DNA of 64,000 bases from Promethearchaeota archaeon (GCA_048940445.1 JBHLON010000004.1:1-64000); one strand, 5' to 3'; positions 9,243 to 51,587 are shown, counted from the first letter of the stretch. Numbers and translations: made by a program. The notes: generated from the sequence alone by a model not told the origin.

Positions 9243-9647
9243 TTAAACCAAATTTTGAAGTTTTAATGCATATGATTGTACTGCAAATAGGGCATCCCGT
9301 GGTCCTACTTGTGGGTTTATATAACAAATTAACGCACCAGTACCTCCAACTGGAACAGGAGCAATTATTATATGTCCTTTACCTGTAATATTAGTACCAA
9401 TTTTACGTTCTTCTGTATTTTCCACAATCATATACTTAAGACCTTGGATTGAAATGCTAGACATTCCTTTTTGACCCAATTCTAATTTAGTTTGCAGTAA
9501 TTCGTTAATAGTTCCAAGATCATGAGATATATCCCAATTTTCTGTTTGAGTAATTAAGCTTCCAGATTGATTTATGACTGCAATGCCAAAAACATTCTGT
9601 TCTTCGTTTAGAAGATCATTTATTATTGATTGTATTTCAGATGACAT
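9243..9647 (-). CDS. Profilin (Lokiarchaeal profilin-1 type)
   Basis: ITQTENW...GLKYMIVENTEERKIGTNITGKGH...INPQVGPRD closely matches Loki profilins as I recall them. Confidence 0.92.
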   Translation of the reverse strand: MSSEIQSIINDLLNEEQNVFGIAVINQSGSLITQTENWDISHDLGTINELLQTKLELGQKGMSSISIQGLKYMIVENTEERKIGTNITGKGHIIIAPVPVGGTGALICYINPQVGPRDALFAVQSYALKLQNLV

Positions 9648-45127: not shown

Positions 45128-45883
45128 ATGATTTATCTAGTATTTCTCGAATTAGACTCTTTAAGCCAACTTTCTGGAGTTTTCGGAATAATCAGTCTAT
45201 TTGTAACATTTTTCTACGGAATCTTAGTCTTGATTAAAGCATATCAATTAAAATACAAAATACTTTATTATTTTTTCTTTGCAATAATTTTTACGATGTC
45301 TCCTTGGTATCCTAGCGGATTTGGTTACATTTATTGGCTGATAACTCATGAAGTTATTCCTTATCCAGTTTATGTATTATTAGGGACATTAGGAGTACCG
45401 ATTGCTTTATTTGCTTGGTTTCAGATTTATATTCCTGCATTACATCCTAAGCTTAAATATCCCTTACTAATAGGCACAGCAATATTATCACTATTATATT
45501 ACGCGTATGTTTTCTTCTTTTTATTTCTTGCTCCAGGTGCTCCGGTTGATCCATTCATAGGAATAAAGCAGAGTGCCATAGACATTGAATACAGGGGATT
45601 CGCTTTAATCTTCTTAGCTTTTTCACTATTAGTAAGTACTATTACTGGTAATGATTTTTCCATCCAGTCATTAAGAAGTGAAGAGAAGGAAATTAAATGG
45701 AAAGGACGTTTTCTGATAGTTTCATTTAATTTTTTTGCAATTGGTGCTATTGGAGATGGATTCCTAGAACTTAATCCCTTTACTTTGATATTTTTTAGAG
45801 TTTTTATGCTATTATCAAGCACTTTTTATTATATAGGGTTTATTCTACCAAAATGGATGAAAAAATTATTGAAATTAGTTTAA
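45128..45883 (+). CDS. 7-TM membrane protein of unknown function
   Basis: Seven hydrophobic segments, C-terminal GFILPKW. Confidence 0.75.
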   Translation: MIYLVFLELDSLSQLSGVFGIISLFVTFFYGILVLIKAYQLKYKILYYFFFAIIFTMSPWYPSGFGYIYWLITHEVIPYPVYVLLGTLGVPIALFAWFQIYIPALHPKLKYPLLIGTAILSLLYYAYVFFFLFLAPGAPVDPFIGIKQSAIDIEYRGFALIFLAFSLLVSTITGNDFSIQSLRSEEKEIKWKGRFLIVSFNFFAIGAIGDGFLELNPFTLIFFRVFMLLSSTFYYIGFILPKWMKKLLKLV

Positions 45884-45929
45884 ATTAAAATTTTTTTTTT
45901 TTTTGGTAATCAATACAAACTCAGTTTAT

Positions 45930-46056
45930 AAAAGGGAGACTCCTGCCACCAAGACCTAAAAGCAAGGTCAAAAACAAAATAGGGGGAGGAGGGCGAAATC
46001 AGAGTGTGTTTTCACACACTACCAAAAGACAAAAATCCAGGGTGGTAGCAGGAGTC
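45930..46056 (-). ncRNA. Putative structured non-coding RNA (~120 nt), family unknown
   Basis: 14-bp terminal helix that needs a G.U pair only on the minus strand, 7-bp stem with a GAAA tetraloop, a second hairpin, a 3' CCCUUUU tail, and local GC enrichment. Confidence 0.6.
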
Positions 46057-46375
46057 ATAACTTATACTTTTTTTTATTCCCTATTTTGATTTTGGTTTGT
46101 ATTTACTATGCTTTTTAAATTTTTATCTTCTTTATGAATTAATATTGGATACAATTGTATTTTTAATTTTTATCTTATGCATTATATAATTGCGGATATA
46201 TTTAAAATAATTGTTGATACGTCATAAATTTTATACATAAAAGAGAATTTTTGTTAGTTTCTTAAGTCTTGCATCTCTTATTTTATACGATTTCAAAGAA
46301 TTTGCAAAAATGATGAACTTAAAATCAAAATTACATTCATAAAGAATAATAAAATGAAATTAATATAAACTTATT

Positions 46376-46759
46376 ATGACTTTAAATCACTCATCTGAAA
46401 AAAAACAATCACATTTTAAATTATATCTATTTTCAGTTATATTTTCCATAATAGGTTTCATAGTTTCATGGTTTAATATGCTATTAATATTAGAAAGCTC
46501 CAAATACATTGAGGTTCTTGCCTACTTATCAATAATACTTACAACCATGATTCCAGGAGTAATAATTGCTTTAAAAAAAAGATATTGGGGATATTCTTAT
46601 CTTTCGGGATTTTCTATTGCTGGAATTCCTTTTATGATATTGATAGATTTATTTATCGGGGCGTATACGTGTATTACTACTATTTTTATATTTGCTATTT
46701 TATGGTTAATATTTTGGAAAGCTTGGCGTTCTCTTGATTCAATAAAGATAGAAGAATAA
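46376..46759 (+). CDS. Small 4-TM membrane protein
   Basis: Hydrophobic 127-aa ORF. Confidence 0.7.
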   Translation: MTLNHSSEKKQSHFKLYLFSVIFSIIGFIVSWFNMLLILESSKYIEVLAYLSIILTTMIPGVIIALKKRYWGYSYLSGFSIAGIPFMILIDLFIGAYTCITTIFIFAILWLIFWKAWRSLDSIKIEE

Positions 46760-46774
46760 AGAAAAATAAATCAT

Positions 46775-47260
46775 TTATTTGGAATGTATTGGTATATCTT
46801 CTATAGTAACATCGTTGACTCTTTTTATCTCAAAAAACTTGTTCTTAATTGTTTCTATGTTAATATTCCCCGATTCGAGAGAATCTCCTATCAAATATGT
46901 TTCATAAAAGCATTTTTCTAACTCATAGCAGATTCCAGTCGTATGTAATATATCTTTACTTAAATTTAGTTTATTTAAAACTTCCGAAATCCCCTTCACT
47001 ATTTCTGGGGAGAATTCTTCTAATTTAATTAGTATTTTTTTTATTACATTTGTATTTATAGGGAAGCAACTTACTTTTATAACATCTTCTCTTGAAATAA
47101 ATATTAATAAATAGTATGGTGATTCCGTAATTTCATCTTTTACTTCATCGGGGAAAATGGTGGAATTTAAATCTTCTTTTGTTATTATCAAGCCTATAGA
47201 AATTTTATTTTTATTTTTACTCTCAGCATTATAAGAAACCATAAGTATCAAAAACTCCAA
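46775..47260 (-). CDS. Hypothetical protein (start probably ATG at 47242)
   Basis: Plausible soluble ORF with an HTTGIC motif; possibly an ACT-like C-terminus. Confidence 0.65.
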   Translation of the reverse strand: MEFLILMVSYNAESKNKNKISIGLIITKEDLNSTIFPDEVKDEITESPYYLLIFISREDVIKVSCFPINTNVIKKILIKLEEFSPEIVKGISEVLNKLNLSKDILHTTGICYELEKCFYETYLIGDSLESGNINIETIKNKFFEIKRVNDVTIEDIPIHSK

Positions 47261-47487
47261 AGAAAATTCAAATATATGTCTATTAATAAAACTTGTTTGT
47301 TTTTAATATTTATTTTTTTTTTATTTTTTTTTTATGATAAGTATTGAGAAAATTAAAGTTAGGTTAGTTTTTGTATAAGGAAAAAAATGTGTTTAAAGAT
47401 GTTACAATGATAACATATGTATTTTAAATTATTAGTTAAAGTTTCTTAATTATGTCATTTTGATTATTAAAAAGATACTTCTAAATT

Positions 47488-47982
47488 ATGTCCTTTAATT
47501 CTAATGATAATTCTGAGAAAGATAATTTTGGTTTTAAGATCAGAAAAATAAACCAAAGTGATTGCTATTTTCATGCAATTTACTTTTTAGATAATATAAC
47601 AGGATCTTTACTTATAAGCAAGCAATATTCGGAGAATACAAAAACCTCATCTAACGGAGATTTAATTAGTGGTTTCTTAAATGCTCTAAATTTGTTTATA
47701 AAAGAAATAAGGCCAGGCGAAACAGATGAGGAAATTCAAGAAATTAATTTTAGAGAAACAAGAATTTTATATGAGCGATTAGGGCGTCTTTCTGTAATCG
47801 CAATAACCAAAAAGTTAAATTTGAAATTTGAAAGACATTTGTTGCATTATATTATAAATGACTTTTATAGTCGATATGAAAGTTCAATTAATCATTTTAA
47901 TGGTATAATTGAACCTTCCATTTTAAATTATGAAAAGAAACTAGAAATGCTTAATTATTACAATTCTCACTTTGAACTATAA
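47488..47982 (+). CDS. Longin-like domain protein
   Basis: AIYFLDNITGSLLISKQY...DLISGFLNALNLFIKE...IINDFYSRY. Confidence 0.75.
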   Translation: MSFNSNDNSEKDNFGFKIRKINQSDCYFHAIYFLDNITGSLLISKQYSENTKTSSNGDLISGFLNALNLFIKEIRPGETDEEIQEINFRETRILYERLGRLSVIAITKKLNLKFERHLLHYIINDFYSRYESSINHFNGIIEPSILNYEKKLEMLNYYNSHFEL

Positions 47983-47998
47983 TTCAAACAATAAGATT

Positions 47999-49258
47999 TT
48001 AGATTTCATCTTTCTTCTTTTTCTCCTCGATTTCTTTTACCTTATCTTCTATCTTTTCACTTATACCTTGGATATCAGGTTTAATTTGCATTCTTTTGGT
48101 ATCTTCTTCTCGCTGTTTTTCCCGTATAAATGCTTTTTCGCTAATAGATTTCTCAATAGCCTGCCCTGCCTGCTCTAAATCTGGTTTAATCCTTTTTAAT
48201 TCTTCTCTGGTTTCTCGTTGTTTATCTAATCTAAATGCTTTCTCATCAACAGATTGACTTATAGCCTCTCCTGTTTTCTCTATATCTGGTTTAAGTGTTT
48301 TCATTTTTTGCGTTGCTTCGCGCTGTAGATCAATCCGAAAGGCTTTTTCACCAACACTTTTCTCAATAGCTTCTCCGACTTTTCTAAAATTAGGCTTTAA
48401 TTCCAATCGTTTAGTATCTTCCTCTCGCTGTTTTTCCCGTATAAATGCTTTTTCGCTAATAGATTTCTCAATAGCCTGCCCTGCCTGCTCTAAATCTGGT
48501 TTAATCCTTTTTAATTCTTCTCTGGTTTCTCGTTGTTTATCTAATCTAAATGCTTTCTCATCAACAGATTGACTTATAGCCTCTCCTGTTTTCTCTATAT
48601 CTGGTTTAAGTGTTTTCATTTTTTGCGTTGCTTCGCGCTGTAGATCAATCCGAAAGGCTTTTTCACCAACACTTTTCTCAATAGCTTCTCCTACTTTTCT
48701 AAAATTAGGTCTTAATTCCATTCGTTTAGTATCTTCCTCTCGCTGTTTTTCCCGTATAAATGCTTTTTCGCTTATAGATTTCTCAATAGCTTGTTCTATT
48801 TGTTCTTTATTAGGTTTTACTCCAAGCCTATGTGCATCAATTTCTTTTTTTTTTTCGATTAAGAAAGCCTTTTGATCAACTGATTTACTTATTGCTTCAG
48901 TGGTCTTTTCTAAATCTGGCTTAATCTTTAATCTTAGAGCATCACTTTCTTTTTTCTTTTCGATCATGAATACTTTTTGATTAACAGATTTACTTATTGC
49001 TTCTCCAGTACTTTTAATATCCGGTCTAAGTTCTAATCTCTTCTTATCCTGTTCCCGTCGTTTTTCTCTTATAAAGCTTTTTTCTGAAATTAAATTTGAA
49101 ATCAATTTTTGACTTTCTTCAAAGGCTTTTTTTCTCTGTTCTTCAAATTTTCTGAGATATTCTTCTCTCTCTTCTTTTTCTTTCTTATAAAGTTCATCGA
49201 CGATCTTCTTTTGCTTTTCGATCTCTTCAGGTGTTAAAGGTTTTTCATTTTCTTCCAA
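47999..49258 (-). CDS. Charged helical protein with ~10 tandem 35-aa repeats
   Basis: Module [KR]P[DN]xxxxxxAIxxS[VI]x[EQ]KAF; SD GGAGTGA upstream of the TTG. Confidence 0.85.
   Translation of the reverse strand: MEENEKPLTPEEIEKQKKIVDELYKKEKEEREEYLRKFEEQRKKAFEESQKLISNLISEKSFIREKRREQDKKRLELRPDIKSTGEAISKSVNQKVFMIEKKKESDALRLKIKPDLEKTTEAISKSVDQKAFLIEKKKEIDAHRLGVKPNKEQIEQAIEKSISEKAFIREKQREEDTKRMELRPNFRKVGEAIEKSVGEKAFRIDLQREATQKMKTLKPDIEKTGEAISQSVDEKAFRLDKQRETREELKRIKPDLEQAGQAIEKSISEKAFIREKQREEDTKRLELKPNFRKVGEAIEKSVGEKAFRIDLQREATQKMKTLKPDIEKTGEAISQSVDEKAFRLDKQRETREELKRIKPDLEQAGQAIEKSISEKAFIREKQREEDTKRMQIKPDIQGISEKIEDKVKEIEEKKKKDEI
48100..48792. repeat. 315-bp near-perfect intragenic tandem duplication (3 x 105-bp units per copy)
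   Basis: CCCGTATAAATGCTTTTTCGC recurs at 48121, 48436 and 48751. Confidence 0.92.
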
Positions 49259-49425
49259 TTATCTCACTCCATAAAAAATAAAATACCTCTTGATGAATAT
49301 AAAATCAAACTTTGTATTTATTAATTTATTTATCGAAGAAATAATAGTTTGGATTTTTAGGTAAATGTTTCGCTTAAATAATAAAAATTGAAACAAAATT
49401 AAAGGTTTTTCGTCATAATATTCTT

Positions 49426-50169
49426 CTACCTTATTGGTATCGACTCAAATGATTCATCAGACACAGAATCCGTTAAACTAATCATTGTGAGCTTCATTGT
49501 AAGCATTTCCATGACATCCATCAATAATTTTCGATAATATTTAGATTGTTTATCAATACTATTTTGAGAAATGATCTCATCAAATTTTCTTTTTAATACA
49601 AGTCTCAGAGTTTCTTGATTATCTAAATCTAAAACCTGAGTTTGAAACCAGTGATCTATTTCACTTTTTATTTGAAGAGCAAGTTTGTCATCTTGGTTAT
49701 AGGCAACTTCAACTGCTTCTAGATACTGCATATTTTCAAGATATTCTTTATCTTGATACATTGGTTTTAATAGGAGCCCTAAGTTAATTATTAAAGGCTG
49801 TATCTGAAGTTTATCTAAAGAATCTGATAAAAGTTTTAATACTTGTCGTTTTTGAGTAAGTTTTGCATAATGGATATATTCTTGAATGAAGTTTAATATG
49901 GTGTTCTTTATTAATAATTCTTGAAAATCATCTACTGATTCAAATTTCATTTCAATTGTTTTTTCGATACAACTATATACAGAACTCATAAAAGGTGTTA
50001 GATTTTTAAACATAGAAAAATAATAAATAAACTGAGTAATTCTCGCCAAAATCTCTTCCTTAAAGCTATCAGACTCAATAAGTGAATCTATTTTTTTTTT
50101 AAGTAAAAATGAATCATCAGGAATAGACAAGAAAGTTTTAATGAAAGAATATTTAGATTGAAACTTCAT
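49426..50169 (-). CDS. Hypothetical helical protein
   Basis: 247-aa ORF with no recognisable motif. Confidence 0.7.
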   Translation of the reverse strand: MKFQSKYSFIKTFLSIPDDSFLLKKKIDSLIESDSFKEEILARITQFIYYFSMFKNLTPFMSSVYSCIEKTIEMKFESVDDFQELLIKNTILNFIQEYIHYAKLTQKRQVLKLLSDSLDKLQIQPLIINLGLLLKPMYQDKEYLENMQYLEAVEVAYNQDDKLALQIKSEIDHWFQTQVLDLDNQETLRLVLKRKFDEIISQNSIDKQSKYYRKLLMDVMEMLTMKLTMISLTDSVSDESFESIPIR

Positions 50170-50255
50170 TAATTAATGTTATTACACCATAATATTAATA
50201 AAGGTTTATTTTATTAGACAAAAAAGTCAAAGAAAAAATTAAACATACTATCATT

Positions 50256-51587
50256 TTATAACGGAATTAGAGCAGTACTTCCATTTTTTTGAGCTTTATT
50301 AATTAGAGTCATAAGTTCCTCACTTGAAATAGGAACAAGGTCAAATACGTTCATCCCAGATAGTTTAAGTTCCGCTCTGAGAGTCTCTGCAAGATTATTA
50401 CAATCTCCAGAAAAGAAAACTTTTCTCTTTCCAAATGCCTCTCTTAATTTATTACCTACTTCATCAATAGCACAATATCCTGCTACAAGTCCTTTAGTAT
50501 AACCTTCAGCTTTTAAGTTATCTATCAAATTCGTATCATGACCTTTACCCATTACTATAAACCAGCCTCCTCTAAATTTATTGGGGTAATCGTAAGCTAA
50601 AAATTGTAATGTAATTAATGGGTTGTTCTGACACCCCTCTATGCATAATAATTCCTTTCCTTTAACGATCTTAATATTGTTAGGAAATTGTTGTAATAAG
50701 TTCCATTGATATTTCTCTTGGTATTTATTCAAACTTTGTCCAATAATTTCGATTTTATTCAGATCACCTTCCCCTAAATTTCGCTCATAAGCAATTTTTA
50801 AATGAGGGACTTCATCGATCGTTAAACCGAAAATTTTTGCTCCCACCACATCTACTGATAAAGTATCTCTCCCTCCAATTAAGATATTAAAAGGGATGAC
50901 TTGTTTATCCACCCAAGCAGTGATAGGATAATGGCCATAAATAATCCCTTCTGTACCATCAATGATCGTGATATCTGGTCTAATTAATTCATATATATCT
51001 ATGAGTTTAGAATGTAAATTGTAATTATGGTCCTTTCCCCGATCAGCATGTTGAGGAAAACCCCATTGATTTTTAATTCCCAAAGTGACCCTTGTCATAG
51101 AATGAGTTTTTAATTTAGGAAGGTTAATATAAGTAACTTTTTCTCTATTTTTTATGATATAAACTACTGTCATTGGTAATCTGAACTTTTTTAGATTATA
51201 GCCTTTAACATCTACTTTTGTAGAAGGTTTTCCTTTAAACTCAAAATACGTGGATTCTTCCTCATCTAAATATTTGATTTCTACTCCGTTGTCTTCACAA
51301 ACTTGTTTATAACCATTAATTGCAAAAACAACCCTAGTCATGTTTGCTTGCGTTGAGTTTTCCATAACATAAATTTCAGCATCTTTTTGTTTAAGATATT
51401 TTATAACTGCCTTAAGAACTAGCGGAGATGTATATGAGTGCTTTTTAAAATCAATTCCATTCACTTTTATATAGACTTTTTTCGAACTTTTTAATATCGA
51501 TCCCGATTTTTCAAGTTCAGTGAACATTTGATTTACAGTTGTCTCTATGCCACTTCTTGTTGAATAAATAAATACCTTAGACATCAT
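50256..51587 (-). CDS. DUF362 domain (Fe-S-associated) protein
   Basis: VYIKVN, INLPKLKTH...TLGIKNQWG, PDITIIDG and a C-terminal Cys cluster (CIEGC...GYC...GDC). Confidence 0.85.
   Translation of the reverse strand: MMSKVFIYSTRSGIETTVNQMFTELEKSGSILKSSKKVYIKVNGIDFKKHSYTSPLVLKAVIKYLKQKDAEIYVMENSTQANMTRVVFAINGYKQVCEDNGVEIKYLDEEESTYFEFKGKPSTKVDVKGYNLKKFRLPMTVVYIIKNREKVTYINLPKLKTHSMTRVTLGIKNQWGFPQHADRGKDHNYNLHSKLIDIYELIRPDITIIDGTEGIIYGHYPITAWVDKQVIPFNILIGGRDTLSVDVVGAKIFGLTIDEVPHLKIAYERNLGEGDLNKIEIIGQSLNKYQEKYQWNLLQQFPNNIKIVKGKELLCIEGCQNNPLITLQFLAYDYPNKFRGGWFIVMGKGHDTNLIDNLKAEGYTKGLVAGYCAIDEVGNKLREAFGKRKVFFSGDCNNLAETLRAELKLSGMNVFDLVPISSEELMTLINKAQKNGSTALIPL

What the first reader, a model, noticed from the sequence alone, without database searches (positions are those of the whole stretch)
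47999..49258. Nebulin-like 35-residue repeat protein with a super-repeat in an Asgard genome
Seen: nine complete and two partial modules of exactly 35 aa, e.g. KPDLEQAGQAIEKSISEKAFIREKQREEDTKRLEL. The later modules follow an A-B-C cycle, i.e. a 105-aa super-repeat. Established: nebulin/nebulette/LASP modules are ~35 aa, bind one actin subunit each, have a consensus like P-x4-A-x2-A-x4-S-D-x-x-Y-K, and form super-repeats. Here the A modules read P-x4-A-x2-A-x5-S-E-x-x-F, which matches in period and hallmark residues to within one position. Inference: this could be an archaeal actin-filament side-binding or ruler protein. I know of no such class described in Asgard archaea, which do have actin and profilin (a profilin is in this window). 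The similarity may be convergent or coincidental.
Basis: partly seen in the sequence, partly recalled or inferred. Interest (0 to 1): 0.85.

Follow-up and report, generated by a model that had tools for sequence, protein, structure and literature searches.

The report
Lokiarchaeal 35-residue helical repeat protein
This is a real, conserved but unnamed gene of one family of Loki-type Asgard archaea that encodes a chain of about ten 35-residue single-helix modules; it resembles the muscle protein nebulin in design only, with no detectable sequence relationship, and its binding partner (actin or anything else) is untested.

Summary
The ORF at 47999-49258 (-) has 419 aa and a TTG start. It consists of a conserved head, one degenerate and nine canonical 35-aa units, and a half-unit cap. 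In 79 full-length relatives, 674 of 740 motif spacings are exactly 35.

The nebulin reading is not supported as homology:
- Pfam Nebulin does not match the protein or 57 single units, even at E<=10.
- A unit profile run against 1.84 billion proteins and against the PDB finds only this family.
- The conserved motif is E-K-A-F, not SDxxYK.
- The 105-aa "super-repeat" is a recent 315-nt tandem duplication. It is one of several lineage-specific duplications and is absent from the commonest 490-aa forms.

AlphaFold2 (two runs), the ESM Atlas model and covariation all indicate one roughly 31-residue helix per unit, broken at K-P-D, with no confident packing between helices.

The gene is single-copy. 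It was found in 109 of 134 genomes of one Promethearchaeota family. It is cleanly missing from the same syntenic slot in two genera, and it is not linked to actin or profilin genes.

My best guess, at low confidence, is a multivalent side-binder of a periodic polymer, with Lokiactin as one candidate. The co-folding test with Lokiactin could not be run.

The scan noted this family before in other genomes; one follow-up (e1-5564563) reached the same verdict.

The parts
47999..49258 (-). Coding sequence of the repeat protein (419 aa plus stop; TTG start)
   Evidence: The TTG/ATG start and the N-terminus LEENEK... are conserved in 43 genome loci.
49133..49258 (-). Head, aa 1-42 (MEENEKPLTPEEIEKQKKIVDELYKKEKEEREEYL...). 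It is the most conserved part among orthologs and reads like an old, degenerate unit.
   Evidence: Invariant columns E3, E11, Q16, K17, K18, L23, Y34 and R42 in alignment A2. It forms part of helix 10-77, pLDDT 83-90.
49028..49132 (-). Degenerate unit 0, aa 43-77 (no Pro; motif ISEKSF)
48083..49027 (-). Nine canonical 35-aa units, aa 78-392. Family consensus: KPDIEKTGEAIsKSIgEKAFrIEKQRExDxKRxEL.
   Evidence: There is one helix per unit, broken at K-P-D.
48002..48082 (-). C-terminal cap, aa 393-419 (KPDIQGISEKIEDKVKEIEEKKKKDEI), a conserved half-unit
   Evidence: The same tail, KPDIKGIxxKIExxIEKIExKKK, occurs in most orthologs.
48080..48790 (-). Recent tandem duplication of a three-unit (315-nt) block, 2.3 copies, 97% matches.
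   Evidence: TRF; 16 of 315 nt differ between copies 1 and 2; unit pairs three units apart (lag 3) are 100% identical in nt.
49264..49270 (-). Shine-Dalgarno-like GGAGTGA, 5 nt upstream of the TTG
   Evidence: Read from the sequence.
49296..49304 (-). TATA-like TTTTATATT about 40 nt upstream of the start, in the 167-nt gap to the upstream gene. It is a possible own promoter (inference only).
   Evidence: Read from the sequence.

Best explanation
The gene encodes a cytoplasmic, slightly basic (pI about 9.2) protein. It is a chain of about ten to twelve single alpha-helices of roughly 31 residues, each started by K-P-D, between a conserved head and a conserved tail. It belongs to an undescribed family that is not homologous to nebulin at any detectable level. 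The most likely mechanism is inferred, not shown. Each 35-residue module would be one binding unit. Its contact surface would be the Ile stripe (I4, I11, I15, I22), the conserved Phe20 on the opposite face, and fixed charged positions (E17, K18, E23, K24, R26, E27). The chain would lie along a periodic cellular polymer and bind one subunit per module, stabilising, bundling or measuring it. The Lokiactin filament is the leading candidate. A helix of about 31 residues plus a 4-residue linker spans about 5.5 nm, which is the axial spacing of actin subunits along one strand.
For: Shown: the gene is real, conserved and single-copy. It occurs in 43 genome loci and more than 80 metagenome loci with the same head-units-tail layout and no domain fusions. 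Unit length is held at exactly 35 aa in 674 of 740 spacings, across orthologs down to 43% identity, and total length changes in steps of 35 (385/419/455/490 aa). Specific residues, including charged ones, are conserved in every unit: I11 99%, F20 97%, E17 91%, E27 88%, A19 86%, K24 85%. This argues for a site-specific function per unit and against a mere spacer. AlphaFold2 on the whole protein gives one helix per unit with no confident tertiary packing (pTM 0.19). AlphaFold2 on four units with a 125-row alignment gives the same (pTM 0.24), as does the ESM Atlas model (pTM 0.14). Covariation among 762 two-unit windows shows only i+3, i+4 and i+7 helix pairs and i+35 pairs, with no hairpin pattern. 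Residues 3-22 form an amphipathic helix, and F20 lies opposite the Ile stripe. The host has a genuine Lokiactin, about 60% identical to eukaryotic actins. Inferred: the 5.5-nm module length and the choice of partner.
Against: There is no direct evidence of any partner. The gene is not linked to actin, profilin or gelsolin genes: the actin-family genes lie on other contigs and the profilin-like ORF is 38 kb away. The gene is confined to one family, although all Asgard archaea have actin. It was found in 109 of 134 genomes of that family, in 3 of 19 genomes of three sister families, and in 0 of 246 elsewhere in the phylum sample. It is missing from the intact syntenic slot in genera g17 and g23, so it is dispensable. 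The period drifts in distant relatives: 37 aa without Pro in G030 and about 40 aa in G029. Conserved residues are spread around the helix rather than on one face. The low-confidence models may simply reflect a shallow alignment from a single family.
Confidence: 0.3

Rival explanations
1. Self-associating structural protein. The chains pair or bundle with each other in register through the Ile stripe of each unit and the long head helix. This would form a segmented coiled-coil rod or higher-order scaffold, a cytoskeletal element in its own right.
For: A period of 35 equals 5 heptads. Positions 4, 8, 11, 15 and 22 follow an a/d-like spacing over the first 22 residues of each unit. The head is one long, confidently predicted helix (aa 10-77, pLDDT 83-90). 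Hydrophobic residues sit on two faces of the helix. Monomer predictions cannot show intermolecular packing.
Against: A Pro occurs every 35 residues. Gly/Ser and Lys sit at would-be core positions 8 and 18. The last 13 residues of each unit are almost wholly charged. No coiled-coil family or solved coiled coil matches. No oligomer test could be run.
Confidence: 0.25
2. Semi-rigid charged single-alpha-helix (SAH/ER-K-like) spacer or tether. Only the head and tail bind partners, and the units merely set a distance of about 5 nm per unit.
For: The units carry an i to i+4 salt-bridge ladder (E9-K13-E17-R21, E27-K31). The composition is 26% K+R and 23% D+E. Isolated helices are predicted without packing. 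Unit number varies between species. Head and tail are conserved separately.
Against: A pure spacer needs no invariant Ile11/Phe20/E-K-A-F motif and no exact 35-aa length in every unit over deep divergence. Regular Pro breaks are unusual for SAH domains.
Confidence: 0.2
3. Alpha-solenoid of the PPR/TPR type (35-aa helical-hairpin repeats) that binds RNA or a protein.
For: The period of 35 equals that of PPR. There is a weak phmmer match to a designer PPR protein (6EEN_B, E=0.004). Gly is frequent at position 16, which could be a turn.
Against: No PPR or TPR Pfam family matches at E<=10. Both AlphaFold2 runs give one helix per unit, not two, and no solenoid. There are too few hydrophobic residues for a core. 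There is no intra-unit hairpin covariation. Foldseek finds no PDB match.
Confidence: 0.05
4. Nebulin homologue: common ancestry with the nebulin/nebulette/LASP repeats of eukaryotes.
For: Only the same modal period (35), a Pro near the module start, and [S/G/D]-E-x-x-F resembling S-D-x-x-Y.
Against: PF00880 does not match the protein or 57 single units. The exhaustive profile search and the PDB search find no nebulin-family protein. Nebulin's D3, K11 and K30 and its invariant Tyr are not matched. The range is restricted to one archaeal family. The super-repeat is not conserved.
Confidence: 0.02

Closest known systems
Nebulin simple repeats (Pfam PF00880; nebulin, nebulette, LASP, N-RAP)
   Same: Modules of about 35 aa (31-38 in nebulin). 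A Pro lies near the start of the module helix and one conserved aromatic lies mid-module after an acidic residue. The protein is highly charged and basic, is helical but not self-folding, has specialised terminal modules, and varies in module number between species.
   Different: There is no profile similarity. The motif is E-K-A-F, not SDxxYK, and nebulin's D3/K11/K30 are not conserved here. The models show one continuous helix per unit rather than H1-kink-H2-loop. The protein has 10-12 units rather than about 180. There is no conserved super-repeat. Actin binding is untested. It is an archaeal, family-restricted gene.
GvpC of gas vesicles (33-aa helical repeats that tie GvpA ribs) and tropomyosin (about 39 residues per actin); comparison from my own knowledge
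   Same: The design principle: tandem helical modules whose length matches a lattice spacing, laid along a polymer to strengthen it.
   Different: There is no sequence match to either. No GvpA (PF00741) was found in this genome, although the control genomes did not ring either. The Pro breaks exclude a continuous tropomyosin-type coiled coil.
Charged single alpha-helix (SAH / ER-K) domains and Pro-punctuated amphipathic repeats of exchangeable apolipoproteins; comparison from my own knowledge
   Same: Isolated charged helices with i to i+4 salt bridges, and a proline at each helix start as in the apoA-I 22-mers.
   Different: The units carry an invariant hydrophobic/aromatic motif and an exact length. 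The period is 35, not 11 or 22. No Pfam apolipoprotein match was found.
Pentatricopeptide (PPR) repeats
   Same: The 35-aa period, and a weak match to a designer PPR protein (E=0.004).
   Different: There is one helix per unit, no solenoid and no Pfam PPR hit.

Membership tests
Nebulin repeat family (PF00880) | Significant match to the Nebulin repeat profile | tested here: not met
   hmmscan of the whole protein and of 57 single units at E<=10 does not list PF00880. HMMER's filters may hide matches above about E=0.1.
Nebulin repeat family (PF00880) | SDxxYK motif at module positions 18-23 with an invariant Tyr, plus conserved D3, K11 and K30 (10.1101/2021.10.06.463400) | tested here: not met
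   The family motif is x-E-K-A-F followed by R/M/L. It has Phe (97%) rather than Tyr, and Ser precedes it in only 24% of units. With F20 aligned to Y22, the K11 and K30 equivalents are Glu or variable.
Nebulin repeat family (PF00880) | Modules of about 35 aa (31-38) | tested here: met
   674 of 740 spacings equal 35 in 79 sequences.
Nebulin repeat family (PF00880) | Conserved super-repeat of several differentiated modules | tested here: not met
   The 3-unit block is a duplication with 97% matches here. Unit pairs at >=90% nt identity occur three units apart (lag 3) in 12 of 33 orthologs. In others they occur at lags 1, 2 or 5, and in the 490-aa forms they do not occur at all.
Nebulin repeat family (PF00880) | Reciprocal relatives among eukaryotic nebulin/LASP proteins | tested here: not met
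   The unit profile against 1.84 billion representatives gave 35 hits, all fragments or members of this same archaeal family. The PDB profile search gave none.
Nebulin repeat family (PF00880) | One module binds one F-actin subunit | not testable with these tools
   The only co-folding job was returned unfolded for a reason unrelated to the pair. It needs biochemistry.
PPR/TPR alpha-solenoids | Two antiparallel helices per 34-35-aa repeat, stacked into a superhelix, with a Pfam PPR/TPR match | tested here: not met
   There is one helix per unit, no Pfam match and no hairpin covariation.
Charged single alpha-helix (SAH) domains | A long isolated helix stabilised by i to i+4 E/K/R pairs, without conserved hydrophobic positions | tested here: inconclusive
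   Salt-bridge ladders and unpacked helices are present. The invariant I11/F20 and the Pro breaks do not fit.
GvpC-type gas-vesicle ties | Co-occurrence with GvpA | tested here: inconclusive
   PF00741 was not found in the genome, but no control genome rang either.

The most novel reading that the evidence does not exclude
An archaeal, convergently evolved nebulin-like protein. Each 35-residue helical module would bind one Lokiactin subunit along the filament, giving a family of Asgard archaea a filament-stabilising or length-setting side-binder. That class of actin regulator is so far known only from animals, and it would have been invented independently of nebulin.
Probability: 0.15. Interest if true: 0.85.

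Novelty: new variant of a known kind. Interest (0 to 1): 0.45.

Why it matters
According to a 2026 paper on Lokiarchaeum motility (PMC13716822), the known Asgard actin regulators are essentially profilins and gelsolins. A modular side-binding protein would add a new class and show that filament "ruler/stabiliser" designs arose outside eukaryotes. Even if actin is not the partner, this is a clean, undescribed protein family. It is abundant in sediment and mangrove metagenomes, has an unusually strict repeat length and shows active repeat turnover. It is easy to express and to test against Lokiactin and other Asgard polymers. Three limits temper this. It is restricted to one family. It is absent from the closed genomes of the sister family that were searched. 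It is dispensable in two genera.

Tried and rejected
It was returned NOT FOLDED, because the tool does not pair eukaryote-like chains with microbial ones.
- The search for homologous proteins found nothing, either with the whole protein or with the 4-unit alignment in 'longer' mode. The likely cause is that low-complexity words crowd the candidate list, so this is not evidence of absence; other searches found more than 120 relatives.
- The exact-sequence look-up of three orthologs found none on record. The likely cause is different called starts.
- No RNA holder was listed among public runs, so expression could not be addressed.
- Contigs of four DNA runs do not bridge the duplicated block.
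- The ESM Atlas feature and structure searches and Foldseek against the PDB with the 4-unit model gave nothing usable.
- NCBIfam has no family for this protein or its neighbours.
- No relatives were found in viral contigs.
- No Rfam family lies in 45500-51000.
- The Pfam 'Entericidin' hit (E=5e-9) is an 11-residue low-complexity match (GEAIEKS...) repeated in the units, and I rejected it as spurious.
- Neighbour genes gave no functional lead. These are p247, p164 and p161 (the ORFs of 247, 164 and 161 aa) and a DUF362 gene. Pfam, NCBIfam and PDB gave nothing significant. The syntenic block persists without the repeat gene. p247 has a wider range than the repeat gene and is unlinked to it in G030.
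- I considered and dropped a resemblance, recalled from memory, between KPD..IEK and beta-thymosin/WH2. Neither Pfam nor the PDB listed such families at E<=10.

Full report
**1. Observation**

The minus-strand ORF 47999-49258 encodes 419 aa from a TTG start. GGAGTGA lies 5 nt upstream, and a TATA-like TTTTATATT lies about 40 nt upstream in a 167-nt intergenic gap.

Written in a 35-aa register, the protein has four parts:
- a head (aa 1-42);
- a degenerate unit without Pro (aa 43-77);
- nine canonical units (aa 78-392);
- a half-unit tail (aa 393-419).

Tandem Repeats Finder reports 105-nt periods across the gene. It also reports a 315-nt period with 2.3 copies and 97% matches at 48080-48790. 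Copies 1 and 2 differ at 16 of 315 nt, mostly at the block edge. The small + strand ORFs inside the gene are shadows of the repeat, and no Rfam family lies here.

**2. The gene is real and conserved**

The protein is single-copy in its genome. Relatives occur in 23 of 24 sampled genomes of the same genus. They also occur in 43 loci of named Promethearchaeota MAGs and in at least 80 metagenome contigs.

All relatives share the same start (mostly TTG) and the head LEENEKPLTPEEIEKQKK... They also share a run of 35-aa units and the tail KPDIKGIxxKIExxIEKIExKKK. No domain fusions were seen among the complete ORFs.

In 79 full-length sequences, the E-K-A-F anchors are spaced as follows:
- exactly 35 residues apart in 674 of 740 cases;
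- 70 in 50 cases, where one degenerate anchor is skipped;
- 32 in 5 cases.

Lengths cluster at 385, about 420, about 455 and 490 aa, and 490 aa is modal (38 of 79).

The unit consensus is KPDIEKTGEAIsKSIgEKAFrIEKQRExDxKRxEL. Conservation per position is I11 99%, F20 97%, E17 91%, E27 88%, A19 86%, K24 85% and P2 77%.

**3. Distribution and context**

I ran a profile of 57 units (A1) against 400 genomes of the phylum:

| Group | Genomes with a match |
|---|---|
| Own GTDB family (f1) | 109 of 134 |
| Sister families f2, f3, f4 | 1 of 14, 0 of 1, 2 of 4 |
| Rest of the phylum sample | 0 of 246 |

The block DUF362 - p247 - repeat gene - p164 - p161 - TM127 - radical SAM is collinear in all family loci. 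Here p247, p164 and p161 are the ORFs of 247, 164 and 161 aa, and TM127 is a 127-aa ORF with a weak transmembrane-domain match. In genera g17 and g23 the block is intact but the repeat gene is missing, and p247 abuts p164. The gene is therefore dispensable, and its neighbours do not depend on it.

p247 has a wider range than the repeat gene (8 of 14 genomes in f2) and is unlinked to it in G030. The neighbours match no informative family.

The genome has four actin-family genes, all on other contigs. The best one is a genuine Lokiactin. A profilin-like ORF lies at 9243-9647 (-), with PF00235 E=1.8e-4, below the cut-off. It is 38 kb away.

Distant relatives in sister families keep the head and the AIEK..G.KAF motif but change the period. 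G030 has 37 aa without Pro, and G029 has about 40 aa.

**4. The nebulin hypothesis, tested**

- Pfam Nebulin (PF00880) matches neither the protein nor any of the 57 single units at E<=10.
- The only 'significant' Pfam hit, Entericidin, is a repeated 11-residue low-complexity match.
- The unit profile against 1.84 billion representative proteins returns 35 hits. All are fragments or members of this same family. None is a nebulin, LASP, thymosin/WH2, apolipoprotein or other family.
- The PDB yields nothing with the profile. With the whole protein it yields only a designer PPR at E=0.004.

The native-nebulin structure paper (10.1101/2021.10.06.463400) defines the module by D3, P5, K11, S18-D-x-x-Y22-K23 and K30. 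It describes two helices with a kink and a loop, and 7-module super-repeats. If F20 is aligned to Y22, only three positions correspond: a Pro one position off, E for D19, and F for Y22. K11 and K30 do not correspond. Homology is not supported.

**5. The super-repeat**

Unit pairs with at least 90% nt identity occur as follows:
- three units apart (lag 3) in 12 of 33 orthologs, in at least three separate lineages;
- at lags 1 and 2 in other orthologs whose units are homogenised;
- at lag 5 in one ortholog;
- not at all in the common 490-aa forms, whose 11-12 units have all diverged.

The 105-aa cycle is therefore repeat turnover (unequal crossing-over or gene conversion). It is not a conserved structural period like nebulin's. 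An earlier scan note on another genome (e1-5564561) also reports a three-unit duplication.

**6. Structure**

- AlphaFold2 with 32 orthologs gives one helix per unit, broken at K-P-D: H81-111, H116-146 and so on. The repeats have pLDDT 50-70 and pTM is 0.19. The head helix 10-77 has pLDDT 83-90.
- A second run on four units with a 125-row alignment of unit windows gives four helices (3-35, 38-70, 72-105, 107-139) with pTM 0.24. There are no two-helix hairpins and no solenoid.
- The ESM Atlas's own model is also unconfident (pTM 0.14).
- Foldseek finds no PDB match.
- Mutual information over 762 two-unit windows (Neff about 219) shows only i+3, i+4 and i+7 pairs and i+35 pairs, the latter from concerted evolution.
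- Residues 3-22 form an amphipathic helix whose stripe is I4, I11, I15 and I22. F20 lies on the opposite face. Residues 23-35 are almost wholly charged.
- In an antiparallel zigzag the Ile stripe would face the charged half of the next helix, which fits the lack of predicted packing (inference).

**7. Mechanism**

The strict unit length and the per-unit conserved motif argue that each unit is a functional site. The predictions and the covariation analysis indicate no self-fold. The protein also has a mildly basic charge and a specialised head and tail.

I therefore rank the explanations as follows:
- a multivalent lateral binder of a periodic polymer (confidence 0.3);
- a self-associating rod (0.25);
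- a spacer or tether (0.2);
- a PPR-like solenoid (0.05);
- true nebulin homology (0.02).

A helix of about 31 residues (about 4.6 nm) plus a 4-residue linker gives about 5.5 nm per unit. This matches the actin subunit spacing along a strand. The 37-residue Pro-less units of G030 would give 5.5 nm as a continuous helix. This is arithmetic on established helix geometry, not evidence of binding.

Several points count against actin specifically:
- the narrow taxonomic range;
- dispensability in two genera;
- the lack of linkage to actin, profilin or gelsolin genes;
- conserved residues that lie all around the helix.

I give the convergent 'archaeal nebulin' reading a probability of about 0.15.

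**8. What could not be done**

The co-folding job with Lokiactin was returned unfolded for a policy reason. No RNA run holds the locus. Public short-read contigs do not bridge the duplicated block, so the unit number in this MAG is uncertain by three.

**9. Relation to earlier scan notes**

The same family was flagged in several other genomes. One follow-up (e1-5564563) concluded 'resembles nebulin in design only'. My independent tests agree. They add the phylum-wide distribution, the empty syntenic slot, the period drift in distant relatives and the repeat-turnover analysis.

Noticed in passing
window 9243-9647 (-): A 134-aa ORF matches Pfam Profilin at E=1.8e-4 (22.1 bits, below the 25-bit cut-off). 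It is probably one of the divergent Asgard profilins. It lies 38 kb from the repeat gene.
   Followed up: partly
L030, L035, L036, L046, L133; proteins P0002, P0003: A subset of more distant family members carries an extra C-terminal motif, T-D-x-E-K-W-L-x-Q-x-K-K-x-R-K, after the cap (twice in P0003). The window protein lacks it. It looks like a short helical docking motif, but its partner is unknown.
   Followed up: no
L070 3181-4538; L071 6329-7707; L072 6263-7553: In two genera of the same family the conserved block DUF362-p247-p164-p161 is intact but the repeat gene is absent, and p247 and p164 are only 40-145 nt apart. This is a clean presence/absence polymorphism at a fixed locus.
   Followed up: yes
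window 47488-47982 (+): The convergent 164-aa neighbour has a motif ...DLISGFLNALNLFIKEI... that recalls longin/roadblock-type regulatory domains (from memory). Pfam, NCBIfam and PDB sequence searches gave nothing significant.
   Followed up: partly
window 48113-48457 (run X1): A 345-bp unitig inside the duplicated block has about 2.6x the depth of the flanks in run X1 but only about 1.4x in runs X2 and X4. The copy number of the 315-nt block may differ between populations, or the MAG may misstate it.
   Followed up: partly
L068 7027-7914 (-) (G030): A sister-family relative has six 37-aa units without any proline (motif AIEK.VG.HAF/KAY). The repeat period of this family is therefore not fixed at 35 over deeper divergence.
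   Followed up: partly
window 47999-49258 and orthologs L009-L051: The start codon is TTG in most orthologs and ATG in a minority, always preceded by the same N-terminus. Exact-sequence look-ups of three orthologs found no record, which suggests that public gene calls use other starts.
   Followed up: partly
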